Origin: an archaeon
GTDB taxonomy: Archaea > Nanobdellota > Nanobdellia > Pacearchaeales > GW2011-AR1
Direction: 5' to 3'
Length of the DNA stretch: 64,000 bases
NCBI GenBank assembly: GCA_018657525.1
Contig: JABHWZ010000002.1
Location: 84,590 to 148,589, forward strand
The position numbers and the translations under genes were made by a program. Numbering within the stretch: position 1 is the stretch's first letter; the number at the start of each line of letters is the position of its first letter. A model generated the notes under the pieces. It did not search any database. It had not been told where the DNA came from and saw only the letters and a program-made list of their open reading frames with translations. This document shows positions 7,891-57,356 of the stretch, one piece after another.

Positions 7891-7891
7891 T

Positions 7892-9162: not shown

Positions 9163-9163
9163 T

Positions 9164-9664
9164 TTATTTACTTCCCTCAATCTTAGATTTAATTTCACTA
9201 AATGTTTTTGAAAAATCTTCTTTTAAGTTTTTCCCTTCAATTCTTTCCTGTTCTGGAAACGCTTCTTCCTTACATTGAATTTCTAATCCTGAATCAATAA
9301 GTCCTTTAATAAAAGAATAAACTTTTGTCTTGTAACTTGTTTTTTGCATTCCTAAATCCACAATCGGCGTTTCTAATTTCTTGTCTTGAATTTTTTTACC
9401 CATCAAATATCCAGTTAAATACGACGCTGGAATTGACTTTAAACTTCCTTTTGATTTTTCAGGCCACCCGCATTTTAACAACTCTTTTGAATTAAGAGTC
9501 ATTACTATTTTATCTTGAGCAGCTTCGCTTGTAACATATTGCGCAAGAGCAAACTTGTTTGATTTTCTAAAAACTAATCTCGGTTTCCCCCCCTTCAACA
9601 ATTTAAGTCTAACTAAATAATTCGTCTTCCCTTCTCTCCTTCTTCGTTTTGCTATTCTTTTCAT
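9164..9664 (-). CDS. rpl18: 50S ribosomal protein uL18 (L5e)
   Basis: KRRRREGKTNYLVRLKLLKGGKPRLVFRKSNK is the uL18 N-terminus. The ATG at 9664 forms an ATGA overlap with the upstream ORF. Confidence 0.9.
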   Translation of the reverse strand: MKRIAKRRRREGKTNYLVRLKLLKGGKPRLVFRKSNKFALAQYVTSEAAQDKIVMTLNSKELLKCGWPEKSKGSLKSIPASYLTGYLMGKKIQDKKLETPIVDLGMQKTSYKTKVYSFIKGLIDSGLEIQCKEEAFPEQERIEGKNLKEDFSKTFSEIKSKIEGSK

Positions 9665-9981
9665 TTTCTTAATCCCTCCCATATTTTTTGTAAATCTCTA
9701 TATCCTCGACATTTTTTTGTAAAGACTGGTTGAGCGGTTCTGTTTGTTCCAGGCAAAAAAAGACCTTCTTTATCAATTTCTGAAACTTCTCCTTTGTAAA
9801 TATCAAAACTGAAGACATCATCTCCCACCAAGTTTGATCTAGTTAAAACTAATTGACCTTCTTTAGGAGCATTCCCAAAGAAAAATTTTCTAAGTTCAGG
9901 ATTTCTTTCAACTCTCCCCATAAAACCTATATAATAATAATCTACTGAAGTATCATATACTCTCCCGACTTCAGCATTCAT
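9661..9981 (-). CDS. hypothetical protein (106 aa) intercalated between rpl19e and rpl18
   Basis: The ORF fills the junction exactly, with ATGA overlaps at both ends. It has no r-protein similarity and carries the SD GGGAGGG for rpl18 in its last codons. Confidence 0.65.
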   Translation of the reverse strand: MNAEVGRVYDTSVDYYYIGFMGRVERNPELRKFFFGNAPKEGQLVLTRSNLVGDDVFSFDIYKGEVSEIDKEGLFLPGTNRTAQPVFTKKCRGYRDLQKIWEGLRK

Positions 9982-10382
9982 TTTCTTAATCCTCCAATAT
10001 ACTCTTTCAAGTTTGCTTTACTTCTAAACATTTTATTTCTTATCCTCTTCCTAATTTCATTCACTTCTTCGATATTTAAGGCTTTTTGTTTTTTCAATTC
10101 ATTAACATAGGCTCTCAACTTCCGAGTCATAATCACATATTTCTTTTTTCTATCATTGACTTTCTTTCTAATATTCCCCGTACTTCTTTTAACCTTTGTC
10201 TTAATTTTTTTTCTTCCTTGAACATTCTTAATCAAAATTGCTCCATCCTTTAATAAATCCCGAATATCTTGCTTTGTAATGGCCTCTTTAATTTCTTCTA
10301 ATCGCGCTTCTACAAAATTAATTCTTGCTTTCCCCACATTTAATGTTCTTGCTGTTAATTCTTTCTTTTTCCTTAAGTTCAT
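9978..10382 (-). CDS. rpl19e: 50S ribosomal protein eL19
   Basis: LRKKKELTARTLNVGKARI...IKEAITKQDIRDL is the L19e pattern. Confidence 0.9.
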   Translation of the reverse strand: MNLRKKKELTARTLNVGKARINFVEARLEEIKEAITKQDIRDLLKDGAILIKNVQGRKKIKTKVKRSTGNIRKKVNDRKKKYVIMTRKLRAYVNELKKQKALNIEEVNEIRKRIRNKMFRSKANLKEYIGGLRK

Positions 10383-10795
10383 TTTTTATTATCCTTCGCT
10401 TTTTTAGTTGATTCTTTTTTCTCATTCTTTTTCAAAAACTTTTTTTCATTTAAATTTAAAATTTTAATTCCTAATTCTTTTGCTTTTTTAACCAATTCAA
10501 TCTTTTTCTTTTTTCCAATACTCGCCAAAGTAATCTCCTTACTTTTAACATTTTCTAATTCTTTCATATTTTCAATTGTTTCAATTTTAATTCTATCTGC
10601 CTCGCCTTTTTTATAACCAATTGCTACAACAGCGGGATATCCTTTTTTTTGCTCTCTCATTTTATTATCTCTTCCAGTTGGTCTTCGCCATTTTTGATTT
10701 TTCTTAGTTCTCTTTCCAAGTTTAACATATCGAGCTGCATCTCTTCTCAAAAATTTCGGCTTTTTCTTTTTAATAGTTTTATTTTCTTCAACCAT
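10379..10795 (-). CDS. rpl32e: 50S ribosomal protein eL32
   Basis: KPKFLRRDAARYVKLGKRTKKNQKWRRPTGRDNKMR is the L32e signature. Confidence 0.85.
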   Translation of the reverse strand: MVEENKTIKKKKPKFLRRDAARYVKLGKRTKKNQKWRRPTGRDNKMREQKKGYPAVVAIGYKKGEADRIKIETIENMKELENVKSKEITLASIGKKKKIELVKKAKELGIKILNLNEKKFLKKNEKKESTKKAKDNKK

Positions 10796-11338
10796 TTACA
10801 TTACCTTCCCGGCTTTATTTATAATGAAAATTCCATCCTGGAAAACACGCCTATCCTTATTTGTGATTCTCGTCGCTGTTTCTAAATTAGCCGCAGCTTG
10901 TCCTGCGATTTCTTTGTCTATCGAAGTAACTGTGATAAACTCTTTGTCAACTTTTATCTCAGCTCCTTTCGGAAGTCTTGCAATCCGTGGAATTTTTTCT
11001 CCTAAGAAATTTTTAATTTCCACATCGTCTTCTCTAATCGTAACAGTCATCGGGAAATGATGGAAACAAACCTTCAAGTTATATTCAAATTTTTCTTGCA
11101 CGCCCTTAATCATATTTTCAATATGCGCCCTAAATGTGTTAATTCTTTTCTTTTCTTTTTTAGTTGATTTTTTATTTCCTAAAGTAATTTTATTATCTTT
11201 AATCTCAAAATCTATTTTAGAAAGATTAAATTTCTTTTTATTTTCTCCTTCTTTACCCTTAACAATTAATTCAGAATCTTCTAATTTAACTTCCACTCCT
11301 TCTGGAATTTCAATTGTTTGAAAAATTTCTTTACGCAT
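10796..11338 (-). CDS. rpl6: 50S ribosomal protein uL6
   Basis: IEIPEGVEVKLED..LIVKGKEG and the two-domain repeat fit uL6. The position after S8 also fits. Confidence 0.9.
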   Translation of the reverse strand: MRKEIFQTIEIPEGVEVKLEDSELIVKGKEGENKKKFNLSKIDFEIKDNKITLGNKKSTKKEKKRINTFRAHIENMIKGVQEKFEYNLKVCFHHFPMTVTIREDDVEIKNFLGEKIPRIARLPKGAEIKVDKEFITVTSIDKEIAGQAAANLETATRITNKDRRVFQDGIFIINKAGKVM

Positions 11339-11339
11339 T

Positions 11340-11573
11340 TTATTCTAAATCTCCTTTTAGATAAGTCCTAAATCTTATATTAAAATCCTCAATTTGTTCA
11401 CCGCTCAAATAACGATTACAAACATTGCTAGCTTTAATATATTCTCCAATTATTGCAGGTATTTGGCAATCAATGCTTATTCGACGATCTAAGTGGATCA
11501 TCTCGCTATGAAACTTTTCTAATTTTGCTTCCATTATACTTGCTGCAGCATCTCTAAGTCCCATTTTACACAT
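11340..11573 (-). CDS. hypothetical protein (77 aa) intercalated between rps8 and rpl6
   Basis: There are 1-nt gaps on both sides when started at the ATG at 11573. The SD AAGGAG for rpl6 sits in its last codons. Confidence 0.6.
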   Translation of the reverse strand: MCKMGLRDAAASIMEAKLEKFHSEMIHLDRRISIDCQIPAIIGEYIKASNVCNRYLSGEQIEDFNIRFRTYLKGDLE

Positions 11574-11574
11574 T

Positions 11575-11955
11575 TTAATAAAAGTATGCAATTAAGCACC
11601 CTCCAATTCCTTCTTCTTGAGCTTCTGTATGAGTCATTAAACCTTTATTTGTAGAAACAATAACTACTCCCATATTTCTCGACGGCAGATATCTTCTTCG
11701 ATAATTTTCAATCTGATCTTTATCAACAGTAAATCTCGGCTTGATTGATTTACAATCCATTAAATTACCAATTTCTATTTCCAGAGTTTTTTCCTTCGGA
11801 TTAATTTTATATTTTTTAATTGCTCCTTCTTGCTTCATAATCTTCAAAACTTCAATTAATACATTCGAAATCCGCTTCACTACAATTATATCTTTTCTAG
11901 CTTTCTTTGCATTCCTAATCATATTCAACGCATCCGCAACAGTATCATGTGACAT
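11575..11955 (-). CDS. rps8: 30S ribosomal protein uS8
   Basis: DTVADALNMIRNAKKARK...VVIVSTNKGLMTHTEA...GIGGCLIAYFY is the uS8 pattern. Confidence 0.9.
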   Translation of the reverse strand: MSHDTVADALNMIRNAKKARKDIIVVKRISNVLIEVLKIMKQEGAIKKYKINPKEKTLEIEIGNLMDCKSIKPRFTVDKDQIENYRRRYLPSRNMGVVIVSTNKGLMTHTEAQEEGIGGCLIAYFY

Positions 11956-11956
11956 T

Positions 11957-12313
11957 TTATTCTTGACCTCCTCTACTCATTTGAGTTTTTCTTGAAAGGA
12001 TATCTGCCCCCATTCTTTCATATTGTTCTTGCGGGATACCATATTTGCTTTTAGCCAGAGTTATTGCTTCATCCAATTCTCTTAATTTTCCCCTAAGCTT
12101 TGAACGATCATAACCTACTAGGTAATCTTCTAATTCTGATAGATATTTTATTTTTCCTGGTAAACTCCATCCACTAACTGTTTCTCCATTTAAATGCTCG
12201 AGTGCTTGAGTAATTACTAAGTCCTTCTGTCCGCTTAAATCTTTTGCGGTATTTGTCAATGCTGCTATGAACCTTCTATCTAATTCACTTAATTGTTTCG
12301 TTTCAGTTGTCAT
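11957..12313 (-). CDS. hypothetical protein (118 aa) intercalated between rps14 and rps8
   Basis: There are 1-nt gaps on both sides. The last codons AGA GGA GGT CAA GAA provide the SD GGAGGT for rps8. Confidence 0.65.
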   Translation of the reverse strand: MTTETKQLSELDRRFIAALTNTAKDLSGQKDLVITQALEHLNGETVSGWSLPGKIKYLSELEDYLVGYDRSKLRGKLRELDEAITLAKSKYGIPQEQYERMGADILSRKTQMSRGGQE

Positions 12314-12314
12314 T

Positions 12315-12545
12315 TTAACTATATTTTGTAAAGCCGATTTCTACTGCTAACTTTCGAAAACAGTGTCGACATAAATTTAATCCGTATGAGTTTACTCTTG
12401 CACCAAACCGACCGCAGTTCTCGCATTTTTGCGCAGCAACTCCAAACTTTCTGTCCCTTGGTTTATTATGTTTCAAAAACTTTGCTTTTATTGCTGGTTT
12501 ATTATCCAACTGCGTCATTACTTTTTTCCAATCGCTTGCTGTCAT
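12315..12545 (-). CDS. rps14: 30S ribosomal protein uS14 (zinc-binding type) with an N-terminal extension
   Basis: CENCGRFGARVNSYGLNLCRHCFR is the C-x2-C...C-x2-C uS14 core. Confidence 0.85.
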   Translation of the reverse strand: MTASDWKKVMTQLDNKPAIKAKFLKHNKPRDRKFGVAAQKCENCGRFGARVNSYGLNLCRHCFRKLAVEIGFTKYS

Positions 12546-12880
12546 TTTACTAATCTTGCCTCCCCATATTTTTTTATCAATTTTCTCCCTTCAAAAGTTT
12601 CAGAGTCAAATCTTTCTATTATAATACCCTCTTGATAATTATCTATCGCGAACCTTCCAGCGTAAGCAATTACTTCTTCAATAGGCACCATCCATTGTGT
12701 CCAATTCCTTCCACAAATCCCTTTATCTCCCAATAAAATCATTGTTCCTTCTTCATCCCTTTCTAACAACATAGCATCAAACCTTCCGTCGATGTAATCT
12801 CCTTGATCTAGTACTGGGAAGACGTCCCCGACTTGTAAATTTTTTACTTGTTCCATATTTTCTAATGTTTCATATTTCAT
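12542..12880 (-). CDS. hypothetical acidic protein (112 aa) intercalated between rpl5 and rps14
   Basis: ATGA overlaps at both ends. The SD GGGGAGG for rps14 sits in its last codons. Confidence 0.65.
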   Translation of the reverse strand: MKYETLENMEQVKNLQVGDVFPVLDQGDYIDGRFDAMLLERDEEGTMILLGDKGICGRNWTQWMVPIEEVIAYAGRFAIDNYQEGIIIERFDSETFEGRKLIKKYGEARLVK

Positions 12881-13407
12881 TTTAGTTTACCAATAAATTC
12901 GATTCCGAATTCTTTCTCCATAAATTTAATTATTTCTTCTCGAGTTATAACTTGTCTCTTTGGAATTTTTCCCCGCTTAACTTTCTTCAATTTAACTCTT
13001 CTTCCAGTTCTTTTAAAAGCTACTGTTACATCAAATCCAAGAATTCCTAAATCTCTTTGATATTCAACTCCCGGGATTTCAATATATTCTTTAATCCCAA
13101 ACGAAAAATTGTTCTCGCTGATTTGCTTTTTCTTTAGTTTGTTTTCAATAGCAATAAATAATCTTTTCAATAATTCCTCCTTACCCTTTCTAATTGTAAC
13201 AACTGCCCCAATTTCTAAACCCGGTCTAACTCCTAATGAAGGAATTCTTTTATTTGATTTCGTCTTCGCTGGTTTTCTGTTTGTAACAAGCTGTAAAAGT
13301 TTATATCCCTTCTCAAGATTATCCCCAATCCCGCCTACACTCAACACAACTTTTTCCATCTTAATCGTTCTCATTACATTTTCTGTTTTTATTTTTTCGT
13401 CTGCCAT
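12877..13407 (-). CDS. rpl5: 50S ribosomal protein uL5
   Basis: NVMRTIKMEKVVLSVGGIGD...GILGFDVTV is the uL5 pattern. Confidence 0.9.
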   Translation of the reverse strand: MADEKIKTENVMRTIKMEKVVLSVGGIGDNLEKGYKLLQLVTNRKPAKTKSNKRIPSLGVRPGLEIGAVVTIRKGKEELLKRLFIAIENKLKKKQISENNFSFGIKEYIEIPGVEYQRDLGILGFDVTVAFKRTGRRVKLKKVKRGKIPKRQVITREEIIKFMEKEFGIEFIGKLK

Positions 13408-13408
13408 T

Positions 13409-14059
13409 TTATTCTATTACAATTACCTGTTTATTTAATACTTTGATTGACTTGTCGCCTTCTGAAATTTCTACTGCTTTTCTTTCCTTATCTAGAACTT
13501 TGATAACTCCTTTTTCTCCTGCGTGCTTTCCTTGGAAAACAAGTACCTTTGATTTTTCTTTCAGAGGCAAACATTTTTCTATTTTTTTATCTTTTAAATT
13601 AATCAAAACAGAATCTCCAATATCACATTTAACCTCTGAAATAAAGTTTTTACCGTCGATTAAATTTATCTGAGTTTTTTTACCTTTCAATGTTTTTTTG
13701 TTAATTACTTTTGAAACTTTTTTCCCTGCTTCAGTTGCTTTAATCTCAACCAATTCAAATTTACCTTTGTTAGATAATTCTAATCTATAATGTTTTTTAG
13801 AAGGCACCAAACTTAAAGTATCCAATAAAACTAGTGCATTTTTATCATCTCTAACTTCTTTATTATTTCTCAAAATTAATCTTTCATTAATTGCCTTCTT
13901 AACTTCTTTTCGAGTAGCTGCAACTTTTAAAATATCCCTCAGCACAACCAGTATCGGTAAACCTAAATGTTTCTCAAAGTTAGGACAAACTACATACGCT
14001 GTTCCCTTCTTTGGAATCGGCCAGTTCTTGGGTATTGTTTGTCTCTTTAAATATGCCAT
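13409..14059 (-). CDS. rps4e: 30S ribosomal protein eS4
   Basis: MAYLKRQTIPKNWPIPKKGTAYVV... is the S4e N-terminus, followed by a KOW-like C-terminal part. Confidence 0.9.
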   Translation of the reverse strand: MAYLKRQTIPKNWPIPKKGTAYVVCPNFEKHLGLPILVVLRDILKVAATRKEVKKAINERLILRNNKEVRDDKNALVLLDTLSLVPSKKHYRLELSNKGKFELVEIKATEAGKKVSKVINKKTLKGKKTQINLIDGKNFISEVKCDIGDSVLINLKDKKIEKCLPLKEKSKVLVFQGKHAGEKGVIKVLDKERKAVEISEGDKSIKVLNKQVIVIE

Positions 14060-14407
14060 TTACAATCCTGCCTCCGTTAGTTTTGGATCTAATTTTTCAT
14101 ATTCTGCGCTTCCTTCAAGAAAGCTTCCATTTAAGATATTTTGTCCCATCCAAGAATCCTCTTTATATTCTAAAACGCTAATACTTTTCGGATAAGCAGG
14201 TATAATCCCTCCCAATATTTCAAGACTCCCTGTTGCAGGTCTTCTGACAAGGGTATATAATTTTTTCTCCTCTAAATCAACCTTTGCAACTAATTCGCGT
14301 GACGCACATGGCTTTAATAAAACATCTTTAATCATTATATCATGTAGAGTTCTATCTAAAGAATCCCTCCATGGGTCTATTATTAATTCATGCCCGTTTC
14401 GTATCAT
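14060..14407 (-). CDS. hypothetical protein (115 aa) intercalated between rpl24 and rps4e
   Basis: ATGA overlap with the rpl24 stop and 0-nt gap to the rps4e ATG. The SD GGAGG for rps4e sits in its last codons. Confidence 0.65.
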   Translation of the reverse strand: MIRNGHELIIDPWRDSLDRTLHDIMIKDVLLKPCASRELVAKVDLEEKKLYTLVRRPATGSLEILGGIIPAYPKSISVLEYKEDSWMGQNILNGSFLEGSAEYEKLDPKLTEAGL

Positions 14408-14859
14408 TTTTTCTCCTTGTTTGTTTTAGTTTTTGGATCTATTTTTTTCTCTACTTTTTCTTTCTTCTTTGTCTTTTTAGTTGTTTCTGTTGCAGTCTTT
14501 TTTGTCTTTGCGGTTCTATCTACCATCGAAACAATTTGTAAATTTGACGGTTGCATTTTAATTACAACTTTTGAGCCATCTTGTTTCTTCGCTTGAATTC
14601 CCTCAATTGTAACTTTGCCCTGCTTTGTAAAAACCTGCAAAATTTTCCCTTCTTTACCCTTGAATTTTCCACGCATAATTTTAACTTTGTCCTCTTTTCT
14701 TATTACAACATTTCTTGCTCCAACTTTCTTTCTTAAATCTTTAGCTAAATTTACTCCAAGAAGTTTTCTCTTAATATGAATCGGAGCGTTCGCTCTAAAT
14801 TTCCTCTGCTTCCGAGGCTGTTTACTTGCTTTCCACGCTGTTGAAAATTCTTTTTTCAT
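14404..14859 (-). CDS. rpl24: 50S ribosomal protein uL24 with a Lys/Thr-rich C-terminal extension
   Basis: KQPRKQRK...IRKEDKVKIMRGKFKGKEGKI is the KOW motif. The ATG at 14859 lies 1 nt after the rpl14 stop. Confidence 0.85.
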   Translation of the reverse strand: MKKEFSTAWKASKQPRKQRKFRANAPIHIKRKLLGVNLAKDLRKKVGARNVVIRKEDKVKIMRGKFKGKEGKILQVFTKQGKVTIEGIQAKKQDGSKVVIKMQPSNLQIVSMVDRTAKTKKTATETTKKTKKKEKVEKKIDPKTKTNKEKK

Positions 14860-14860
14860 T

Positions 14861-15262
14861 TTAATAAACCACTGAAGCGATTTTTGCAACTTGCGGCCAT
14901 CGCTCTAGAACCTCCCTTGCAATTGGTCCTTTAATCTGAGTTCCTTTTGGATTGCCTTTTTCATCTTTCAAAATAGCAACTGCATTATCTTCAAATGCCA
15001 CTCGCTCTCCGCTGTTTCTTCTCCATGATTTTTTCTGTCGAATTATTACTGCGTCAAAAACTTTCCCTTTCATGTCAGGCACGCCCTTCCGGATTGAAAC
15101 CTTTACCCAATCTGCAATTTTAGCACTTACCTGTTTAGATTTTTTAGCTTTAGCCTTTTTAACTGAAACAATTTTAACCATCTTCGCCCCACTATTATCT
15201 GCCGCGGGCATAATTGCACCGAGGTTAAAAGCTGAAGTTGTTCGCGCGCTTATTGCTTTCAT
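14861..15262 (-). CDS. rpl14: 50S ribosomal protein uL14
   Basis: ADNSGAKMVKIVSV...VFDAVIIRQKK..RR..G..V.FEDNA is the uL14 pattern. Confidence 0.95.
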   Translation of the reverse strand: MKAISARTTSAFNLGAIMPAADNSGAKMVKIVSVKKAKAKKSKQVSAKIADWVKVSIRKGVPDMKGKVFDAVIIRQKKSWRRNSGERVAFEDNAVAILKDEKGNPKGTQIKGPIAREVLERWPQVAKIASVVY

Positions 15263-15537
15263 TTTACATCCTCCCCTAATAATCCCTCAACTCTTAAATG
15301 ATTCCATGCTCTACTTCTTCTAATTTCTGCACTTTCACATCCTCCAATGCACCCACATCCTATTTGATATTCTCTAATGGTCACTTTTTCTCCATCCGAG
15401 TAAGCAAATATATTTGTTCCACATTGAGGATTTTGGCATCCAAATAAAACTCCTTTTTGCCCACTCACTAAAATATTCTGTGGGACATATGGATTAGATT
15501 CAAACCTGTGAATATCTTGAGGCCTTATTGCTTTCAT
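15259..15537 (-). CDS. hypothetical Cys-rich protein (92 aa) intercalated between rps17 and rpl14
   Basis: ATGA overlaps at both ends. Its first 14 nt are identical to the rpl14 start (MKAI). CQNPQCG...CGCIGGC is a possible metal site. The SD GGGGAGGA for rpl14 sits in its last codons. Confidence 0.65.
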   Translation of the reverse strand: MKAIRPQDIHRFESNPYVPQNILVSGQKGVLFGCQNPQCGTNIFAYSDGEKVTIREYQIGCGCIGGCESAEIRRSRAWNHLRVEGLLGEDVK

Positions 15538-15971
15538 TTTTTCTCTTCTCCAGATTTATCTTCTTTATTCAGTGTTTCACGATGCTCATGTGAAATGGAT
15601 TTAATAAACACAAAATGGATAATCTTACTCAAAGGTCGGCACTCTTGAATCTGAACTAAGTCCCCAATATTTACTGACGCTTCTAAGCATATTGGCAATC
15701 TAGCATGAAGTTTGGTTCTTGATTTAGTATATCTTTCATATTTTCTTACGTAAACTGTTCTTTCAAGTTCAATTACAATTCTTTTTTTAAATTTCTTGGT
15801 AACTGTTCCTTCAAAGATTCGCCCATGAGTTTTTAATTTTCCATGAATATTACAATCTATATCTTTGCATTCTTTCAGAGTCTCTGCTACTTTTGCTCCC
15901 TTCCGTGCTTCGCGATGCCTATGCGCAATGGCGCTTTCTGTTTTTTTCTTTGTCATTTTCTTTTCTGTCAT
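15534..15971 (-). CDS. rps17: 30S ribosomal protein uS17 with terminal extensions
   Basis: GRIFEGTVTKKFKKRIVIELERTVYVRKYERY...IGDLVQIQECRPLSK is uS17. The ATG at 15971 has AGGTGA 13 nt upstream; the alternative ATG at 16040 would overlap sui1 by 11 nt. Confidence 0.85.
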   Translation of the reverse strand: MTEKKMTKKKTESAIAHRHREARKGAKVAETLKECKDIDCNIHGKLKTHGRIFEGTVTKKFKKRIVIELERTVYVRKYERYTKSRTKLHARLPICLEASVNIGDLVQIQECRPLSKIIHFVFIKSISHEHRETLNKEDKSGEEKK

Positions 15972-16029
15972 TTTTGTGTATGTCACCTTTTTTTCCGGGC
16001 CACCTCGAAGAGGTTCTCGTGACCTTTGG

Positions 16030-16332
16030 TTATTCTTCATCTACGGAATCTTCATCAAATCCCATCTTTCCTAAAAGAGGTTTTATTCTCTTTCGATGAT
16101 CTCCTTGGAGTTCAATTCTGCCATCTTTGTAAGTCCCTCCACAAGCTAACTCATTTTTCAGAGCCTTTGCGGTTTTCTTTACATCGACGCTGTTGTCGAA
16201 CCCACTAACCACAGTAACAATCTTTCCGTACCTTTTCTTGTCGGTTGTTACCTTTATTCTTTGTGAACTTTTTACTATCTGCTCACACACACATGCTTGC
16301 TCAGGCAAGCCACATTTTGGACATATTTCCAT
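16030..16332 (-). CDS. sui1: translation initiation factor aIF1 / SUI1
   Basis: CPKCGLPEQACVCE zinc knuckle plus the SUI1 core (KRYGKIVTVVSGF...LKNELACGGTYKDGRIELQGDHR). Confidence 0.9.
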   Translation of the reverse strand: MEICPKCGLPEQACVCEQIVKSSQRIKVTTDKKRYGKIVTVVSGFDNSVDVKKTAKALKNELACGGTYKDGRIELQGDHRKRIKPLLGKMGFDEDSVDEE

Positions 16333-26462: not shown

Positions 26463-26478
26463 ATGCCGCCATCGCATA
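26463..26478 (+). repeat. direct repeat copy 1 of ATGCCGCCATCGCATA (the tRNA-Ser 5' acceptor/D segment)
   Basis: 16/16 identical to 26538-26553, 75 bp upstream of it. Confidence 0.9.
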
Positions 26479-26539
26479 GTTCCTTTGGTCTCGCTAACGC
26501 GAACACGATGGTTAAGATAAAAGAACCAAAGAGACACAT

Positions 26540-26620
26540 GCCGCCATCGCATAATGGTATTGCATCCGGCTTGAGACCGGAGCCCTTTTGGGCGTCCCCG
26601 TTCGATTCGGGGTGGCGGCG
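26540..26620 (+). tRNA. tRNA-Ser (anticodon UGA), class II with a 14-nt variable arm; no encoded CCA
   Basis: Hand-folded cloverleaf. Acceptor GCCGCCA/TGGCGGC, D stem GCA/TGC, anticodon stem TCCGG/CCGGA with loop CTTGAGA, variable arm GCCC-TTTT-GGGC, T arm CCCCG-TTCGATT-CGGGG, discriminator G. Confidence 0.85.
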
Positions 26621-26703
26621 TTCTGGAGAATCGAACTTCGATTTCGAGCGATTTCGTGGTAGCAGGATAATCCCAAAAAAACTGCGAGCGAGATCGGGAG
26701 TCA

Positions 26704-34916: not shown

Positions 34917-35222
34917 TTATCCAAATAGAGCACCTAGCCCTTCTGCTGCAGCTTCTTTCTTTTCTTCTTTTGGCTTCTCAGCTTTTGCTTCTCCACCTTC
35001 AGCTCCACCCGCAGGTGCGCTTCCAGCAGCAGGAGCACTAGCAACTAAACTAGCACTTGCTAATTCAGCTTCGATATCCACGTCCTTCAAACTAGCAACA
35101 AGAGACTTGATTTTACTCTCGTCCACGTCGATGCCAGCGGCTGCAACAACACTTTTGATTCCTTCTTCATTAACTTCCTTTCCTGCCTTATGCAGTAAAA
35201 GTGCTGCGTATACGTTTTCCAT
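34917..35222 (-). CDS. rpl12: 50S ribosomal stalk protein P1 (archaeal L12)
   Basis: MENVYAALLLHKAGKEVNEEGIK..., an Ala/Gly hinge, and the C-terminal EKKEAAAEGLGALFG. Confidence 0.9.
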   Translation of the reverse strand: MENVYAALLLHKAGKEVNEEGIKSVVAAAGIDVDESKIKSLVASLKDVDIEAELASASLVASAPAAGSAPAGGAEGGEAKAEKPKEEKKEAAAEGLGALFG

Positions 35223-35237
35223 TTTATTGTTTTCCTC
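35219..35237. repeat. 19-nt perfect direct repeat (CCATTTTATTGTTTTCCTC on the plus strand) spanning the stop/start junction, copy 1
   Basis: Identical to 35430-35448. On the coding strand it reads GAGGAAAACAATAAAATGG, i.e. -GKQ stop, A, ATG G. Confidence 0.9.
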
Positions 35238-35433
35238 TCCCAGAATTTAGTTCTGTTTGAGTTGAATATCTATTACAAATTTGATAATCATTTGGACAAC
35301 TCATTGCCCAGAATCGATCTATTTCACTTGCGCAGGGACTACCATCATATAAAAACGGACACATCTTTCCTTCTTCTTTCAAATTTTCAAGTCTTTGAGT
35401 AATTTCTTCTGACATTATTAAATTTTCTGCCAT
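35224..35433 (-). CDS. hypothetical Cys-rich protein (69 aa) intercalated upstream of rpl12
   Basis: There are 1-nt gaps on both sides when started at the ATG at 35433. Contains a CPF...C...C...C pattern and is flanked by the 19-nt perfect repeat. Confidence 0.6.
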   Translation of the reverse strand: MAENLIMSEEITQRLENLKEEGKMCPFLYDGSPCASEIDRFWAMSCPNDYQICNRYSTQTELNSGRGKQ

Positions 35434-35448
35434 TTTATTGTTTTCCTC
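35430..35448. repeat. 19-nt perfect direct repeat, copy 2
   Basis: See 35219-35237. Confidence 0.9.
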
Positions 35449-35764
35449 CATTTAAATTTGGAGTTTGAACTTGGTAAGCTCTTACCCAAAATTTATTTGA
35501 AAAGTCAACTTCATCCATTCCTTCTGAAATAAGTACTCCTGCTAATAAACCTTCTACAATTCCTTGTCCGTCCGGAGCACATCTTCTCCCTATTTTATTC
35601 CAAGAATTATCTGGATCTCTCCTAACATCACGAAACCGGATGTTTTTACAACCCTGTGAATGATATACCTCTATTTTTACCATTAGAGTCTCTCCAGTAG
35701 ATGGTGCAGGATATTGATAAATTTCATCCAACATCCCTTGTGGGATAGAATCTCTTTCTGTCAT
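35435..35764 (-). CDS. hypothetical protein (109 aa) intercalated downstream of rpl10
   Basis: The ATG at 35764 lies 1 nt after the rpl10 stop; the track start at 35857 overlaps rpl10. Confidence 0.6.
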   Translation of the reverse strand: MTERDSIPQGMLDEIYQYPAPSTGETLMVKIEVYHSQGCKNIRFRDVRRDPDNSWNKIGRRCAPDGQGIVEGLLAGVLISEGMDEVDFSNKFWVRAYQVQTPNLNGGKQ

Positions 35765-35765
35765 T

Positions 35766-36722
35766 TTATCCAAACAGTGCACCAAGACCTTCAGCTGCTG
35801 CTTCTTTCTTGGGCTCCTCCTTTTTTTCTGGTTTTGATTCTTCTGCTGGTGCTTCAACTGCCACTGGCTCTGGTTCCCCAGTCATTATTCTATGAACTTT
35901 AGTTCCATGTGCATTTGCTTTTGCTAACAAGTGAGAAATTGTATCTTTTGAGACATATCCCATAGAAACTGCAAAAGACAATGCCTTCCCATAATCTGCC
36001 TTCAAATTTTCAAGAGCCCCTTCAATATCAATTTTAATTTCTGCATAAAATTTATTCTCTTTAGTATCAAGCGCACTCAAAGGTAAGAACCCAATTGAAA
36101 ACGGTTTAATATCTAACTTACTCATCATCGCCGCTGCCCCCGAAGAAATCTCTTCGCCTTCTTTAACTAAAACTTTATCTTCCTTAATTGCAATTTTCCC
36201 ATCTTTAATCTGAATCTGAATTCCCAAAGCACCCAATTCTGAAATTGCTGGACCTGGAACTAAATCTGTTGGACCTGCTGAAACAATAATGTCCAACGGA
36301 GCAATTTGTCCAACTTTTGCTTTTGCAGGACTTTTGTTTCTTAATAAATCCAGAGATAAATCAAATGCATCACTTTCTGAAAATAATATTGCAACAGCTT
36401 CGCCAATCGAACCCTTTAATTTTTCTCCTTCTTTTGTTTCCGCTTCATCGATCGCTCTAAGAATTAAATTTTTCTTTGGAACTTTTACAACTGCTTGTCC
36501 TCGAAGTTTCTTAACAATTTCTTGAAATTGTGAGCCAGGCAAATTCTTAATTGAAGCAATTAAAACTGTTTTACTCCCACTAACTAAATCCTTTAACTCT
36601 GTAACAGTTTCCAATTTCCACTTTGGTGGATCAGTTCTTGCCGAGCGTTTTTGCGAACCTTTCGCGTCGCCCTTGATGTGAGCGGGAGCGCGAGTTTGAG
36701 CTGGTTTTTTTATTTCTGCCAT
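35766..36722 (-). CDS. rpl10: 50S ribosomal stalk protein uL10 (P0)
   Basis: PKWKLETVTELKDLV...VLIASIKNLPGSQFQEI and the C-terminal KKEAAAEGLGALFG. Confidence 0.9.
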   Translation of the reverse strand: MAEIKKPAQTRAPAHIKGDAKGSQKRSARTDPPKWKLETVTELKDLVSGSKTVLIASIKNLPGSQFQEIVKKLRGQAVVKVPKKNLILRAIDEAETKEGEKLKGSIGEAVAILFSESDAFDLSLDLLRNKSPAKAKVGQIAPLDIIVSAGPTDLVPGPAISELGALGIQIQIKDGKIAIKEDKVLVKEGEEISSGAAAMMSKLDIKPFSIGFLPLSALDTKENKFYAEIKIDIEGALENLKADYGKALSFAVSMGYVSKDTISHLLAKANAHGTKVHRIMTGEPEPVAVEAPAEESKPEKKEEPKKEAAAEGLGALFG

Positions 36723-36723
36723 T

Positions 36724-36972
36724 TTATTCTATCACCTTCCTTTTTAATTTTCCGTTAATTATTTCATATGTTCTGGAAAATTCTTCCTCTGTCCCATAAT
36801 TAGTATAAACTCGACTTCCTTCCTCTCCCCAAATAAAAACATAGTTCTCTTCTATTGATCCAGATAAATTATGAACTATTTGTTTCGCCTCTCTTCCATT
36901 TAAAACTTCTAAAAGTCCTTTTCGTCCATCATCAACTTCTCTTCCAATCCATTGTTTCCAATTATTTTCCAT
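36724..36972 (-). CDS. hypothetical protein (82 aa) intercalated between rpl1 and rpl10
   Basis: There are 1-nt gaps on both sides. Its last codons encode GGAAGGTGAT, the SD for rpl10. Confidence 0.6.
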   Translation of the reverse strand: MENNWKQWIGREVDDGRKGLLEVLNGREAKQIVHNLSGSIEENYVFIWGEEGSRVYTNYGTEEEFSRTYEIINGKLKRKVIE

Positions 36973-36973
36973 T

Positions 36974-37606
36974 TTATCTTATCGAAATTTTCTGCGGTTT
37001 AGTCATTGTGAATTTAACTTCAACATTCTTTACATTTTCTTTTTCTCGCGGTAAATGTTTCAGAACAGTTTTGTAAATTGTATTAATATTCTCAATTATG
37101 TCTTCATCTTTCATACTCTGTTTCCCAATCGCAAGTTTAATACTAGCCTCTTTAACTTTAATTTTTATACTATTACTAATTTTTGCTTTCACTTCATTTA
37201 TTGCTTTATCATCTGCATTTAGAATTATTCCTAACTGGGGAGAAGGCATTTTTCCTGCTGGTCCTAACGCTCTACCAAAGGTTGTTGCAATTTTTGGCAT
37301 TAAACTTCCTTGCGCAAGAAAAAAATCATAACTCTCTACTAATTTTTTTAATTTCTTCTTATCATTATATTTCTTAAATTGCTCTGGAGTAATCGTATCC
37401 ACATTTTTATTGTCTGATTCTAAGAAACCTGCAATTTTTTTCTCTTTTACTTGATGCGGAACATTCACAATAACATTAAGTGTTGTTTTTTTCAAATCAA
37501 CTTTTTGCAAATTTATAATTAAATCAACTGTTTGGTCAAACTTCCGTTCCTTCCCTTTACGTAACTCTTCCAGAGCTTTTTTTAAATCGGTTTTCAAATC
37601 TGCCAT
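36974..37606 (-). CDS. rpl1: 50S ribosomal protein uL1
   Basis: RKFDQTVDLIINLQKVDLKK...LGPAGKMPSPQLG is uL1. Confidence 0.9.
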   Translation of the reverse strand: MADLKTDLKKALEELRKGKERKFDQTVDLIINLQKVDLKKTTLNVIVNVPHQVKEKKIAGFLESDNKNVDTITPEQFKKYNDKKKLKKLVESYDFFLAQGSLMPKIATTFGRALGPAGKMPSPQLGIILNADDKAINEVKAKISNSIKIKVKEASIKLAIGKQSMKDEDIIENINTIYKTVLKHLPREKENVKNVEVKFTMTKPQKISIR

Positions 37607-43063: not shown

Positions 43064-43082
43064 ATCATAGTTTCCGTTTAAT
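43064..43082. repeat. 19-nt perfect direct repeat ATCATAGTTTCCGTTTAAT (duplicate of the aIF5A stop region), distal copy
   Basis: Identical to 43131-43149, which contains the last 5 codons plus the stop of aIF5A. The copies are separated by 48 bp containing a hairpin. Confidence 0.9.
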
Positions 43083-43131
43083 TATTTTCGTTCCTTGTCT
43101 GCTGATTTTTCAGCAAGGATAGGTGCAAAAA

Positions 43132-43524
43132 TCATAGTTTCCGTTTAATGATTTTTGTACCTTCAATATCCCAGTATTCGCAATTTCCACTTTCTTCTAA
43201 AGAATCACAAACTTCTTTTTCTGGGCAATCAATATCTAAAGTTTCAAAAGATTCCATATCCATAACGCTGGCCTTTCCTTCGCTTTTTGAAAGAACCTGG
43301 CCCTTTCGTTTGTCTACCATTGGCACCTCTAGTCTATCGTGTCCAGGCACAACAAAAACTTTTTTGTTTCCAGTAATCAAACCAACAGCCTCGATTCTCG
43401 CCTTTGCATGTCCATGTTTACCTGTCTTAGAAATATCAATTTTTTTCACAACACATGGGTGTCCATCCACAATAATATTCGTCCCAACTTTTGCTTCAGT
43501 AGCGTTAATAATTTTTAATACCAT
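43132..43524 (-). CDS. eif5a: translation initiation factor 5A (aIF5A)
   Basis: Hypusination loop SKTGKHGHAKARIE. Confidence 0.9.
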   Translation of the reverse strand: MVLKIINATEAKVGTNIIVDGHPCVVKKIDISKTGKHGHAKARIEAVGLITGNKKVFVVPGHDRLEVPMVDKRKGQVLSKSEGKASVMDMESFETLDIDCPEKEVCDSLEESGNCEYWDIEGTKIIKRKL

Positions 43525-55919: not shown

Positions 55920-56285
55920 ATGGCATTTTTTCTACCTAAATGTATTCCTGATTATCGATTTTCAGATAAGTGGGTTCAATATTTACCTTTAATTGGAATT
56001 CCTGCAGAACTAAGGGGAAGGAGGAAAAAGAGAAATAGAATTGCAACTGATGTACAATCAGTTTCAGGAATTGCTGGGATGTTTGGAGCAGTATTGCTAT
56101 TGACTTCTTCTTTAAAAATGCCACAGACAAATCAACAATACAATCAAGCAATCACAGAAGGTTTACCTCCTGCAACTTATGAGGAAGTTCAATCTATCTC
56201 TCGAGAAAGATGGGTAAGAAAACTTGACGAATCAGATTATACTGCAGATGAAATTAGAGAATTCGTTAAAGGAGAAAGAGATTAA
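55920..56285 (+). CDS. small single-TM protein, paralog 1 of a tandem triplet (121 aa)
   Basis: Shares the C-terminal block NQQYNQ..EGLPPATYEEVQSISRERWVRKL.ESDYTADEIRE with the next two genes. It starts 1 nt after the surface-protein gene. Confidence 0.65.
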   Translation: MAFFLPKCIPDYRFSDKWVQYLPLIGIPAELRGRRKKRNRIATDVQSVSGIAGMFGAVLLLTSSLKMPQTNQQYNQAITEGLPPATYEEVQSISRERWVRKLDESDYTADEIREFVKGERD

Positions 56286-56286
56286 A

Positions 56287-56661
56287 ATGAAATCACTCCA
56301 TAATTTTATAACAAAAAAATTTCCAGATGAATGGGCACAATTGGTCCCAATTTATGGGATTCCAGCAGCGACTAGGGTTGGTGATTCATTGACTGTGAAA
56401 AGTGTTCTTACCTCAGTAATCCAATTGGCTTCAGTAGTTACAGGGGTTATTGGTTTAACTTTAACTAGTTTTGCGATTAATGATATGCCTAAGACAAATC
56501 AACAATACAATCAACTCCTCCAAGAAGGTTTACCTCCCGCTCCTTACGAACAAGTCCAATCTATCTCTCGAGAAAGATGGGTAAGAAAACTTAATGAATC
56601 AGATTATACAACTGAAGAAATTAGAGAACTAGTTAGAGGCAAATATGGAGAAAAGGAATAA
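56287..56661 (+). CDS. small single-TM protein, paralog 2 (124 aa)
   Basis: ATG at 56287, 1 nt after the paralog 1 stop. The N-terminal FPDEWAQLVPIYGIPAA block is shared with paralog 3. Confidence 0.65.
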   Translation: MKSLHNFITKKFPDEWAQLVPIYGIPAATRVGDSLTVKSVLTSVIQLASVVTGVIGLTLTSFAINDMPKTNQQYNQLLQEGLPPAPYEQVQSISRERWVRKLNESDYTTEEIRELVRGKYGEKE

Positions 56662-56662
56662 A

Positions 56663-57028
56663 ATGAAATTATACAATTTTCTAACAAAAAAAGTTCCAGA
56701 TGAATGGGCACAATTGGTCCCAATTTATGGGATTCCAGCAGCGAATAAGGTTGGTAGTGCATTGACTGTGAAAAGTGTTCTTGCCCCAGTAATCCAAATT
56801 TGTTCAGTAGTTACAGGGGTTATTGGTTTAAGTTTAATGTTAACTGGTTTTGTGCTTAATGATAGACCTAAAGATAATCAAAGATATAATCAACTTTTGA
56901 ATGAAGGTTTACCTCCTGCAACTTATGAAGAAGTTCAATCTATCTCTCGAGAAAGATGGTTAAAAAAACTTAACGAATCAGATTATTCCGCAGATGAAAT
57001 TAGAGAACTAGTTAGAGAAAGAGATTAA
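56663..57028 (+). CDS. small single-TM protein, paralog 3 (121 aa)
   Basis: ATG at 56663, 1 nt after the paralog 2 stop. Confidence 0.65.
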   Translation: MKLYNFLTKKVPDEWAQLVPIYGIPAANKVGSALTVKSVLAPVIQICSVVTGVIGLSLMLTGFVLNDRPKDNQRYNQLLNEGLPPATYEEVQSISRERWLKKLNESDYSADEIRELVRERD

Positions 57029-57029
57029 A

Positions 57030-57356
57030 ATGACATTATATAAATCTTTAAAAAACACAGGAAGAGCATTGGCCTTAAGTGGATTAATTACTTTGGCTGG
57101 TTGCAGTAAACCAGAAACTCCTGAAGAAGAACCAGACAGATTAACTCGAACTTTGGAAGTTGGAAAGAAAACTTTTAAAGGAGTAAGTTATAATGGGCTG
57201 ACACGAGATAATACCTTTTCAGTGAGTGAGAACACACATAATACTACTATCTTTCTTCCAAGAGATACAAATAATTTTCAATACAGGCACCAAAAATTTA
57301 AAGTTTTAAAATTAACCCCCAAATCAATAACTTTAAGATTAATAGAACCTTACTAA
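57030..57356 (+). CDS. putative lipoprotein (108 aa)
   Basis: Signal sequence ending in the lipobox-like LAGC; 1-nt gap after paralog 3. Confidence 0.5.
   Translation: MTLYKSLKNTGRALALSGLITLAGCSKPETPEEEPDRLTRTLEVGKKTFKGVSYNGLTRDNTFSVSENTHNTTIFLPRDTNNFQYRHQKFKVLKLTPKSITLRLIEPY

What the first reader, a model, noticed from the sequence alone, without database searches (positions are those of the whole stretch)
35219..35448. A perfect 19-nt duplication of the stop/start junction flanks the intercalated 69-aa ORF
On the coding strand GAGGAAAACAATAAAATGG occurs twice: plus-strand 35430-35448 and 35219-35237, 211 bp apart. It is found once at the end of the 109-aa ORF and start of the 69-aa ORF, and once at the end of the 69-aa ORF and start of rpl12.

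As a result both upstream ORFs end in -GKQ stop, and both downstream genes start ATGG. This is what a cassette insertion that duplicates its target, the gene junction, would leave behind. It also recreates the SD and start context for the downstream gene.
Basis: seen in the sequence. Interest (0 to 1): 0.85.

Follow-up and report, generated by a model that had tools for sequence, protein, structure and literature searches.

The report
Mini-gene inserted at duplicated rpl12 start
A small cysteine-rich gene sits exactly at the start of ribosomal stalk gene rpl12 in a tiny (DPANN) archaeon, flanked by two identical copies of the 19-base stop/start signal, and relatives that lack it carry a single copy, so it looks like a real gene-cassette insertion into one of the most conserved operons known.

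Summary
GAGGAAAACAATAAAATGG occurs exactly twice on the minus strand (35430-35448 and 35219-35237), flanking a 69-aa ORF (o69) between a 109-aa ORF and rpl12.

Part of the 19-mer is generic: TAAAATG occurs 60 times in the window. The full identity is still an outlier.

- The two closest relatives I could read (L091, L107) have one copy, with no o69. Their left side matches our upstream copy and their right side matches rpl12. That is an empty site.
- The 19-mer is the 3' core of a roughly 45-nt rpl12 leader conserved across about 50 Woesearchaeota-like lineages. The leader folds into a hairpin that occludes the Shine-Dalgarno (SD) sequence. Both copies here keep the hairpin, with different stems.
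- o69 is not an orphan. It belongs to a rare Cys4 mini-protein family that sits in at least four different tight intercistronic slots in other archaea: L39e|L31e, L1|L10, gyrB|mazG, and here.
- The same window has eight more intercalated ORFs without a Pfam match in ribosomal operons. Two are flanked by 16-17-nt junction repeats (association p about 1e-4).

The best reading is a derived cassette insertion that repeats the junction, so that translation of both o69 and rpl12 is preserved. The enzyme or mechanism that makes the repeat is not identified.

The parts
35430..35448 (-). Upstream copy of the 19-mer: SD GAGG, spacer AAAACAA, o109 stop TAA, one A, then the o69 start ATG plus G.
   Evidence: Exact match. 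With its 5' flank it aligns to the single rpl12 leader of L091 and L107.
35219..35237 (-). Downstream copy of the 19-mer: SD, spacer, o69 stop TAA, one A, then the rpl12 start ATG plus G.
   Evidence: Exact match. From this point rightward it aligns to L091 and L107 rpl12.
35224..35433 (-). o69, a 69-aa intercalated ORF and member of a Cys4 mini-protein family. Residues 24-56 carry the conserved core (coding 35266-35364). The last 13 residues (STQTELNSGRGKQ) are encoded by the downstream rpl12-type leader.
   Evidence: ORF. HMMER homologs P0127, P0129, P0130, P0131 and P0133. Eleven invariant residues, including 4 Cys. No Pfam, NCBIfam or PHROG hit.
35446..35463 (-). SD-occluding hairpin of the upstream leader copy, CUCCA-AAUUUAAA-UGGAG. 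This is the resident type, as in L091 and L107.
   Evidence: MFE -7.1 kcal/mol, z = -2.40. Leader family.
35235..35261 (-). SD-occluding hairpin of the downstream leader copy: CUC / CAGAA-CUAAA-UUCUG / GAG. Its 5' half lies in the inserted segment and resembles the L027-type leader.
   Evidence: MFE -7.0 kcal/mol, z = -2.92. Its best match is the L027 leader (15.5, against 0 for the upstream copy).
35435..35764 (-). o109, a 109-aa species-specific ORF filling the space between the L10 stop and the resident rpl12 leader. Its tail (QTPNLNGGKQ) is encoded by the leader.
   Evidence: Only self-hits. The first ~55 nt and the tail are homologous to L091 o66; the middle is unrelated.
34917..35222 (-). 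rpl12 (archaeal P1 stalk protein).
   Evidence: Pfam Ribosomal_60s. 82% nt identity to L091.
35766..36722 (-). rpl10 (P0), with the canonical C-terminal stalk peptide.
   Evidence: Pfam Ribosomal_L10 and RL10P_insert.
36724..36972 (-). o82, an intercalated species-specific ORF between L1 and L10.
   Evidence: No Pfam hit. Single-member cluster; no remote-homology search was run for o82. In most relatives L1 and L10 abut.
36974..37606 (-). rpl1.
   Evidence: Pfam Ribosomal_L1.
15259..15537 (-). o92, an intercalated Cys-rich ORF between S17 and L14. It is flanked by the 17-nt repeat AAAATGAAAGCAATAAG (plus-strand 15249-15265 and 15524-15540).
9661..9981 (-). o106, an intercalated ORF between L19e and L18. 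It is flanked by the 16-nt repeat GGATTAAGAAAATGAA (plus-strand 9660-9675 and 9977-9992).

Best explanation
The 19-mer is the 3' core of the rpl12 translation-initiation leader: SD, 7-nt spacer, stop codon of the preceding ORF, one A, ATG, G. In this lineage a 211-bp unit was inserted exactly at the rpl12 start. The unit consists of a pre-existing Cys4 mini-protein gene (o69), a 5' hairpin half of the rpl12-leader type, and one copy of the 19-mer.

The result is [resident leader + 19-mer]-o69-[imported hairpin half + 19-mer]-rpl12.

Because the junction is repeated:
- o69 is translated from the signals that used to serve rpl12.
- o69 terminates one base before the rpl12 ATG.
- rpl12 keeps an identical SD, stop and start context, and an SD-occluding hairpin. 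Its translation can therefore stay coupled to the upstream reading frame.

Shown:
- the exact repeat;
- the single-copy configuration in the nearest relatives;
- the leader family and its hairpin;
- the o69 gene family in other slots;
- the enrichment of such repeats around other intercalated ORFs.

Inferred:
- That it was an insertion in our lineage rather than a loss elsewhere. This rests on parsimony, one event against two or more.
- That the repeat was made by the insertion event itself. My favoured mechanism is single-crossover or short-homology integration of a cassette at the conserved leader core. A staggered-cut target duplication by a trans-acting enzyme is the alternative.
- That translational coupling actually operates.
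For: 1. The repeat is exact and beyond the generic junction consensus. Its spacer variant is unique to this genome.

2. Empty site. L091 and L107 have one leader directly before rpl12. Alignment A4 shows their left half matching our upstream copy and their right half matching our downstream copy plus rpl12. blastn maps the L091 junction stretch (about 5086-5112) onto both of our copies, and nothing matches L001 ~5805-5985.

3. About 75 related loci normally have L10 and L12 abutting, with a gap of -1 to 3 nt.

4. o69 has homologs (E 1.6e-10 to 1.8e-4; 11 invariant residues) lying between L39e and L31e, between L1 and L10, and between gyrB and mazG. They are always tightly abutted to their neighbours.

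5. The leader is conserved in about 50 lineages whether or not it is coding.
- Mean folding z is -1.97 for L12 leaders, against -0.20 for L1 and +0.44 for L10 leaders.
- Native hairpin arms fold better than swapped arms: -5.53 against -3.65 kcal/mol, 0 of 2000 permutations.
- Both copies here fold, while the three other junctions of this operon that I folded (L1/o82, o82/L10, L10/o109) show no significant structure.

6. o92 and o106 in the same window are flanked by 17- and 16-nt junction repeats; p = 1.2e-4.

7. The arrangement is not an assembly artefact. The 24 contigs read in each of two look-ups showed the same neighbouring genes.
Against: - No transposase, integrase or homing-endonuclease gene was found near the site or in the window ORFs scanned. 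There are no terminal inverted repeats.
- About 8-12 of the 19 positions are generic, and unrelated starts share up to 18 nt.
- The other family members show no long flanking repeats. Other insert-bearing relatives show only weak excess similarity between their flanks (p = 0.02; longest run 10 nt).
- Polarity rests on two relatives at 68-73% L10 identity.
- No compositional anomaly marks the insert.
- No polymorphic or empty alleles were found within the species.
- Translation of o69 and the hairpin's function are untested.
Confidence: 0.65

Rival explanations
1. Reverse polarity. The leader duplication and o69 were already present in the common ancestor of this genome, L091 and L107. The relatives lost o69 by recombination between the two direct repeats, which leaves exactly one hybrid leader. 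The repeat would still be a real duplication, but the 'empty site' would be a deletion scar.
For: Deletion between 19-nt direct repeats would give exactly the L091/L107 configuration. The downstream-copy hairpin half resembles leaders of more distant lineages such as L027, and so could be the older vertical copy.
Against: It needs at least two events (a gain, then a loss in L091 and in L107 or their ancestor) against one. L091 and L107 both have the upstream-type leader next to rpl12. If the duplication were that old, the 19 nt should have diverged as the L091 and L107 cores did (13/15 identity), unless gene conversion acted.
Confidence: 0.15
2. Post-insertion homogenisation. o69 arrived by some unrelated route, such as illegitimate recombination or horizontal transfer from an rpl12-proximal slot of another lineage, with a merely similar translation-initiation region. 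The two neighbouring regions, 211 nt apart, were later made identical by gene conversion, or kept identical by selection for equal initiation strength.
For: The 5' halves of the two leaders have different affinities: the upstream copy is L091/L107/L067-like and the downstream copy is L027-like. Identity stops sharply at 19 nt. Leader cores in several lineages are already nearly identical to ours, for example GGAGGAAAACAAATAAAATGG in L048, L054 and L057.
Against: Conversion tracts of only 19 nt ending exactly at ATGG are unusual. The same signature at o92 and o106 would need three independent conversions.
Confidence: 0.12
3. No homology. The two 19-mers are independent instances of the genome's generic SD/stop/start consensus, coincidentally identical and shaped by selection on translational coupling.
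For: TAAAATG occurs 60 times in 64 kb, and AATAAAATGG 10 times. An unrelated pair, L5/L10, shares 18 nt, and o69/L10 shares 16 nt.
Against: The junction position-weight model expects 1.6e-4 to 3e-3 such pairs. The spacer AAAACAA is unique to this genome. The single-copy state in relatives places the repeat exactly at the boundaries of the extra DNA. The repeats are enriched around intercalated ORFs.
Confidence: 0.05
4. Local tandem duplication followed by divergence. A segment containing the leader plus part of a neighbouring gene (rpl12 5' end, o109 3' end or L10 3' end) was duplicated, and the extra copy decayed into a new ORF. This would be de novo gene birth.
For: A tandem duplication would automatically create an SD/ATG-led ORF ending in the same tail. 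Insert sizes in relatives (about 230-400 nt) are near the length of rpl12.
Against: The o69 body shows no similarity to the rpl12 5' end, to o109 beyond the leader-encoded tail, or to an L10 profile, where bit scores are negative. o69 has bona fide homologs elsewhere.
Confidence: 0.03

Closest known systems
Integron gene cassettes
   Same: Small, promoterless single-gene units are inserted at a defined point of an expressed array. Unrelated cassettes occupy the same slot in different lineages, and the same cassette family turns up in different places.
   Different: There is no attC-type recombination site and no IntI integrase. The insertion point is a translational (stop/start) junction inside essential ribosomal operons. 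The flanks are 16-19-nt direct repeats of the host junction.
ORFan insertion into existing operons (Price, Arkin and Alm 2006, PMC1480536)
   Same: Lineage-specific genes are added to native operons and expressed from native signals. The age of the ORFan matches the age of the new gene pair.
   Different: That work describes the pattern in E. coli and B. subtilis without junction duplication. Here the inserts sit inside the ribosomal-protein operons at single-base spacing, and three are flanked by repeats of the junction.
Free-standing homing endonuclease genes between conserved genes (phage T4 seg/mob type; from my own knowledge)
   Same: These are selfish genes lodged precisely between conserved, highly expressed genes. 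One relative (L037) has a LAGLIDADG-type ORF in the very same L10|L12 slot.
   Different: o69 has no nuclease domain. Homing does not create direct repeats of the target.
Insertion sequences and MITEs with target-site duplications; Campbell-type integration producing attL/attR
   Same: The inserted DNA is bracketed by a direct repeat of a host sequence that is single-copy in the empty site.
   Different: There is no transposase, there are no terminal inverted repeats, and there is only one copy in 64 kb. The 16-19-nt length exceeds usual transposase duplications. No integrase is evident.
Translational coupling by termination-reinitiation, and SD-occluding hairpins (Huber et al. 2019, PMC6728339; PMC10666635)
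   Same: Stop and start lie 1 nt apart or overlap (ATGA), with the SD inside the upstream ORF. A hairpin sequesters the SD so that upstream translation could open it.
   Different: Those papers describe how fixed gene pairs are expressed. Here the coupling module itself is duplicated and serves as the landing site for a new gene. The rpl12 leader hairpin of this clade matched no Rfam family.

Membership tests
Archaeal L1-L10-L12 ribosomal stalk operon | Genes for L1, L10/P0 and L12/P1 in this order on one strand. | tested here: met
   Pfam Ribosomal_L1, Ribosomal_L10 plus RL10P_insert, and Ribosomal_60s. The same order is found in about 90 related loci.
Translationally coupled gene junction (termination-reinitiation type) | Co-directional genes whose stop and start overlap or lie within a few nt, with the SD inside the upstream ORF. 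| tested here: met
   Both copies read TAA-A-ATG, with GGAGG or GAGAGG 7-8 nt upstream of the ATG.
Translationally coupled gene junction (termination-reinitiation type) | Downstream translation depends on upstream translation. | not testable with these tools
   This needs reporter or ribosome-profiling experiments.
Structured r-protein leader / SD-sequestering hairpin | A stable hairpin that includes the SD, conserved across relatives with co-varying arms. | tested here: met
   z = -2.40 and -2.92 for the two copies. Family mean z is -1.97, against -0.20 and +0.44 for the L1 and L10 leaders. Arm-swap test: 0 of 2000. No formal pairwise covariation count was made.
Transposable element (IS / MITE) | A transposase gene or terminal inverted repeats. 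| tested here: not met
   o69 and its neighbours have no Pfam hit. No inverted repeat brackets 35224-35433.
Transposable element (IS / MITE) | Target-site duplication that is single-copy in empty sites. | tested here: met
   The 19-nt direct repeat is single-copy in L091 and L107. Its length is atypical.
Transposable element (IS / MITE) | Multiple copies per genome. | tested here: not met
   A family HMM finds one copy in the 64-kb window and none in the other L1-L12 loci except L099 and L100. The whole genome was not searched.
Integron cassette | An attC site 3' of the ORF and an IntI integrase with attI. | tested here: not met
   The only 3' structure is the 27-nt rpl12-type hairpin. No integrase was found among the ORFs scanned, but the scan of the window was not exhaustive.
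Free-standing homing endonuclease gene | A LAGLIDADG, GIY-YIG, HNH or similar nuclease domain in the inserted ORF. | tested here: not met
   No Pfam, NCBIfam or PHROG hit for o69 or its family. The L037 insert does carry LAGLIDADG_3.
Cys4 mini-protein family (new, unnamed) | Core motif C-P-x-x-Y-x-x-S-x-C ... W ... C-P-x-D-Y-x-x-C-x-x-Y in a 59-75-aa protein. | tested here: met
   phmmer E-values from 1.6e-10 to 1.8e-4 for five small proteins. Eleven invariant columns.

The most novel reading that the evidence does not exclude
DPANN (Woesearchaeota-like) archaea harbour a previously undescribed kind of mobile unit. These are promoterless, SD-less mini-gene cassettes that move between intercistronic stop/start junctions of highly expressed, translationally coupled operons (ribosomal proteins, gyrase). 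They use the conserved junction or leader core itself as the recombination site, leave 16-19-nt junction repeats, and thereby hijack the host's coupling signals without disrupting them.
Probability: 0.3. Interest if true: 0.9.

Novelty: new variant of a known kind. Interest (0 to 1): 0.72.

Why it matters
Ribosomal-protein operons are among the most conserved gene arrays in biology and are usually treated as untouchable.

In this genome at least nine extra small ORFs sit inside them at single-base spacing. For one of them three things hold together:
- the insertion boundaries can be read to the nucleotide;
- an empty site exists in relatives;
- the inserted gene belongs to a family that occupies other junctions elsewhere.

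This gives a concrete, testable model for how new genes enter essential, translationally coupled operons without breaking them: the coupling junction is repeated on both sides. It also points to a recombination target, the conserved translation-initiation region, that needs no dedicated att site.

The work also exposes a conserved SD-occluding rpl12 leader hairpin and an uncharacterised Cys4 mini-protein that is repeatedly embedded in ribosomal operons. That protein is a candidate ribosome-associated factor or a selfish hitch-hiker.

Tried and rejected
- o69 body derived from the rpl12 5' end. The DNA alignment ranks 25th of 113 control genes. Rejected.
- o69 derived from the o109 3' part by tandem duplication. 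There is no similarity once the leader-encoded tail is removed (z < 1). All-against-all Smith-Waterman alignment of the operon's proteins shows only the L10/L12 tail similarity. Rejected.
- o69 or o109 derived from the L10 C-terminus. The scores against a profile built from 120 L10 homologs are negative. An apparent 18/20-nt match (LENLK) is at chance level. Rejected.
- o92 from L14 and o106 from L18. No significant similarity beyond the junction repeat itself.
- o69 and o109 as pure orphans. This held in the word-indexed search, but the exhaustive HMMER search overturned it for o69.
- RNAalifold on MAFFT alignment A2. No consensus structure was found because stem registers differ between lineages. 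I replaced it with per-sequence folding, control leaders and an arm-swap test.
- AlphaFold2 of o69, alone and with the 6-sequence alignment. pLDDT was 53-55, which is uninformative, so no fold search was run.
- Viral contigs, phage records, PDB sequences, Rfam, PHROGs and NCBIfam. Nothing was found.
- Compositional anomaly of the insert. None.
- Within-species polymorphism. None in the 24 contigs read in each of two look-ups.
- Two larger proteins with repeated weak matches to o69 (P0128, P0132). They look like unrelated repeat proteins and were not pursued.
Full report
**1. What is in the sequence**

On the minus strand the window carries the archaeal stalk operon with three extra ORFs:
- L1: 36974-37606
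- o82: 36724-36972
- L10/P0: 35766-36722
- o109: 35435-35764
- o69: 35224-35433
- L12/P1: 34917-35222

All five junctions read TAA-A-ATG. GAGGAAAACAATAAAATGG occurs exactly at 35430-35448 and 35219-35237, and nowhere else even with 3 mismatches. o109 ends ...GGKQ* and o69 ends ...GRGKQ*.

The contig is JABIAR010000001 of MAG GCA_018653175.1, named 'archaeon'. Its relatives are labelled Woesearchaeota, Pacearchaeota or Nanoarchaeota. The same gene neighbourhood was seen in all 24 contigs read in each of two look-ups of public assemblies. It is therefore not an assembly artefact, and no o69-less allele was seen.

**2. Is it more than chance?**

Part of the 19-mer is generic for this genome. TAAAATG occurs 60 times in 64 kb, almost always at a gene start preceded by a purine-rich SD. 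Unrelated starts share long blocks: L5/L10 share 18 nt (ATAGAATAAAATGGCAGA) and o69/L10 share 16 nt.

The full identity is nevertheless an outlier.
- Of 6555 pairs of predicted gene starts aligned at the ATG, only this pair and a genuine tandem-paralog pair reach 19 nt. The next-best value in that scan was 16. The scan missed the 18-nt L5/L10 match because my gene finder chose a different L5 start.
- A position-weight model built from the window's own junctions expects 1.6e-4 such pairs. Within the TAAAATG class it expects 3e-3.
- The spacer variant GAGGAAAACAATAAA occurs in no other lineage's rpl12 leader; the best match is 13/15. The identity is therefore a within-genome event, not shared conservation.

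**3. The 19-mer is the core of a larger conserved element**

I collected 90 related L1-L10-L12 loci from genomes and metagenomes. In most, L1/L10 and L10/L12 abut, with gaps of -4 to 3 nt.

About 45 nt upstream of the rpl12 ATG are conserved at the nucleotide level in about 50 distinct lineages. The approximate consensus is A-ACTC(C)...AAATAAAT...GGAG(A/G)GAAAA-TAA-(A)-ATGGAA. This holds whether the stretch is translated as the tail of L10, as a 13-16-codon mini-ORF, as the tail of an intercalated ORF, or not translated at all. This explains why whatever ORF precedes rpl12 ends in ...TP.LN..G.(K/N)*.

The element folds into a hairpin whose 3' arm is the SD and whose 5' arm is the conserved ACUC(C).
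- Mean folding z is -1.97 (84% below -1; n = 51). For the L1 and L10 leaders of the same loci the means are -0.20 and +0.44.
- Inner stems differ between lineages but stay complementary: CUCCUG/CAGGAG, CUCUCAAA/UUUGAGGG, CUUCACA/UGUGGAG, and others.
- Native arm pairs fold better than arms swapped between lineages: -5.53 against -3.65 kcal/mol, and 0 of 2000 permutations reach the native mean.
- There is no Rfam match.

Both copies in the window keep such a hairpin, built from different stems:
- Upstream copy: CUCCA/UGGAG, -7.1 kcal/mol, z = -2.40.
- Downstream copy: CUC + CAGAA / UUCUG + GAG, -7.0 kcal/mol, z = -2.92.

The L1/o82, o82/L10 and L10/o109 junctions show no significant structure (MFE 0, 0 and -5.4 kcal/mol, all with z > 0).

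**4. Empty site in the nearest relatives**

The closest relative found is L091, from an ENA metagenome. It is 73% identical in L10 and syntenic from the M50 peptidase to the helicase. Its layout is L10-TAA-A-ATG-o66 (...TPSLNGGNK*)-A-ATG-rpl12.

blastn aligns the L091 junction stretch (about 5086-5112, within its leader) to both of our copies. L001 5759-5804 aligns at 85% and L001 5986-6361 at 82%. Nothing aligns to L001 ~5805-5985, which is the o69 body plus the 5' half of the downstream hairpin.

L107 (68% in L10) has a 39-nt non-coding spacer with the same type of leader directly before rpl12.

The four-way alignment A4 shows the classical picture. The relatives equal the left flank of our upstream copy, plus one junction, plus the right flank of our downstream copy. 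One insertion in our lineage is the most parsimonious history. Loss by recombination between the repeats in the relatives cannot be excluded.

The 5' half of the downstream hairpin is unlike the resident leader (alignment score 0). It is most like the leader of a different lineage, L027 (score 15.5). This suggests the inserted piece came from an rpl12-proximal slot elsewhere.

**5. o69 is a real gene of a family that occupies different junctions**

Word-indexed searches found only self-hits. An exhaustive phmmer search of 1.84 billion representatives found five small proteins of 59-75 aa, with E-values from 1.6e-10 to 1.8e-4. They share 11 invariant residues, including four Cys: CP..Y..S.C...W...CP.DY..C..Y. 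The family has no Pfam, NCBIfam, PHROG, PDB or viral match. AlphaFold2 confidence was low.

Their contexts:

| Protein(s) | Slot |
|---|---|
| P0127, P0129, P0133 | between L39e and L31e (P0129's upstream neighbour, on a 648-nt contig, was not identified) |
| P0131 | between L1 and L10 of a syntenic Woesearchaeon, which also has an unrelated 105-aa ORF between L10 and L12 |
| P0130 | between gyrB and a MazG-like gene |
| o69 (this window) | between o109 and L12 |

In each case the gene is packed within a few bases of its neighbours, or overlaps them. The same mini-gene in four kinds of intercistronic slot is what a cassette would look like. The long perfect flanking repeat is seen only here, which fits a recent event.

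**6. The slot and the genome are generally permissive**

At least ten other lineages carry unrelated ORFs of 66-132 aa between L10 and L12. One carries a 1.3-kb insert with a LAGLIDADG-type ORF. Three lineages have an ORF between L1 and L10. Only one pair of these inserts is clearly homologous (L045 and L083, E = 9e-19). Within a locus, the two flanks are slightly more alike than flanks taken from different loci (p = 0.02 for relatives alone).

In our window the spc cluster also contains six ORFs without Pfam matches:
- S17 | o92 | L14
- L24 | o115 | S4e
- L5 | o112 | S14
- S14 | o118 | S8
- S8 | o83 | L6
- L19e | o106 | L18

o92 is flanked by the 17-nt repeat AAAATGAAAGCAATAAG, and o106 by the 16-nt repeat GGATTAAGAAAATGAA. 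Both repeats contain the overlapping stop/start ATGA. Of 325 pairs among 26 ribosomal-operon starts, five share at least 16 nt in register, and three of those five are among the nine pairs that flank an intercalated ORF (permutation p = 1.2e-4).

**7. How it most likely works**

Shown:
- a repeat of the junction brackets extra DNA that relatives lack;
- the extra DNA encodes a conserved mini-protein;
- both junctions retain the SD, the 1-nt stop/start spacing and an SD-occluding hairpin.

Inferred: the cassette integrated at the conserved leader core. I favour short-homology, single-crossover (Campbell-type) integration of an excised or imported cassette carrying a similar core. Several lineages have nearly the same 20-mer. 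A staggered-cut duplication by an unidentified trans-acting enzyme, or later gene conversion, are the alternatives. No recombinase was found.

Functionally, the duplication lets ribosomes that finish o109 start o69, and ribosomes that finish o69 start rpl12. This matches what is described for termination-reinitiation coupling (PMC6728339, PMC10666635). Insertions that failed to repeat the junction would probably have been lethal, so selection may also have filtered what we see.

**8. Comparison with known systems, and verdict**

The arrangement works like a gene cassette, as in integrons, and like ORFan insertion into operons (PMC1480536). Its insertion scar looks like a target-site or att duplication. 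It fails the membership tests for insertion sequences and MITEs, for integrons and for homing endonuclease genes.

I rate it a new variant of a known kind. There is a 30% chance that it represents a distinct class of mini-gene cassettes that target stop/start junctions.

Noticed in passing
window 7375-16040 (minus strand): The spc ribosomal-protein cluster contains six intercalated ORFs with no Pfam match: o92, o115, o112, o118, o83 and o106. Two of them (o92, o106) are flanked by 16-17-nt junction repeats. o92 is Cys-rich.
   Followed up: partly
window 55920-57356 (plus strand): Four tandem paralogous genes of 108-124 aa. The two I scanned (55920-56285, 56287-56661) have no Pfam match. Exact repeats reach 51 nt, and a junction 19-mer is repeated (56272/57015).
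   Followed up: no
window 26463-26621: A 16-nt direct repeat, ATGCCGCCATCGCATA, occurs at 26463 and 26538. The second copy abuts the 5' end of tRNA-Ser(tga) at 26539-26621. This could be an att-like duplication.
   Followed up: no
window 43064-43149: A 19-nt exact direct repeat, ATCATAGTTTCCGTTTAAT, with copies 67 nt apart.
   Followed up: no
window 60477-60496: A perfect 20-nt palindrome, TAGTAAGATTAATCTTACTA.
   Followed up: no
L037:1009-2315: A relative has a 1307-nt insert in the same L10|L12 slot. It carries a 54-aa CxxC ORF and a 369-aa ORF with LAGLIDADG_3 and HTH domains, which looks like a free-standing homing endonuclease.
   Followed up: partly
rpl12 leaders of about 50 loci (e.g. 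L005:4925-4978, L007:4740-4793, L073:5011-5064): A conserved SD-occluding hairpin lies upstream of rpl12 across Woesearchaeota-like lineages, and it matched no Rfam family. In lineages whose L10 has the canonical tail, it is often translated as a 13-16-codon mini-ORF abutting both genes (L018, L031, L080, L085).
   Followed up: partly
L105:3389-3491 and L032:2007-2123: An alternative arrangement: the leader mini-ORF is followed by about 60 nt containing a different conserved hairpin (GCGTCAT...TGACGC), and there is no SD before rpl12.
   Followed up: no
L10 starts in about 60 loci; window 36722-36760: rpl10 almost never has an SD in relatives (3 of 60) and overlaps or abuts rpl1. In this window the tail of the inserted o82 supplies AGGAAGGTGA upstream of rpl10.
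   Followed up: no
L003:3676-3966 compared with L083:4884-5176 and L045:843-1148: An ORF in the L1|L10 slot of one lineage is weakly similar (E = 3e-4) to the ORF family in the L10|L12 slot of two others. This is a second candidate family occupying two slots.
   Followed up: no
window 34917-35222 compared with L091:5101-5415: The first 53 nt of rpl12 are 52/53 identical between this genome and L091, while rpl1 and rpl10 are about 75% identical. This could reflect unusual nucleotide constraint or recent exchange around the insertion site.
   Followed up: no
window 3417-4865 (plus strand): SecY lies on the opposite strand, detached from the spc cluster where it normally follows L15.
   Followed up: no
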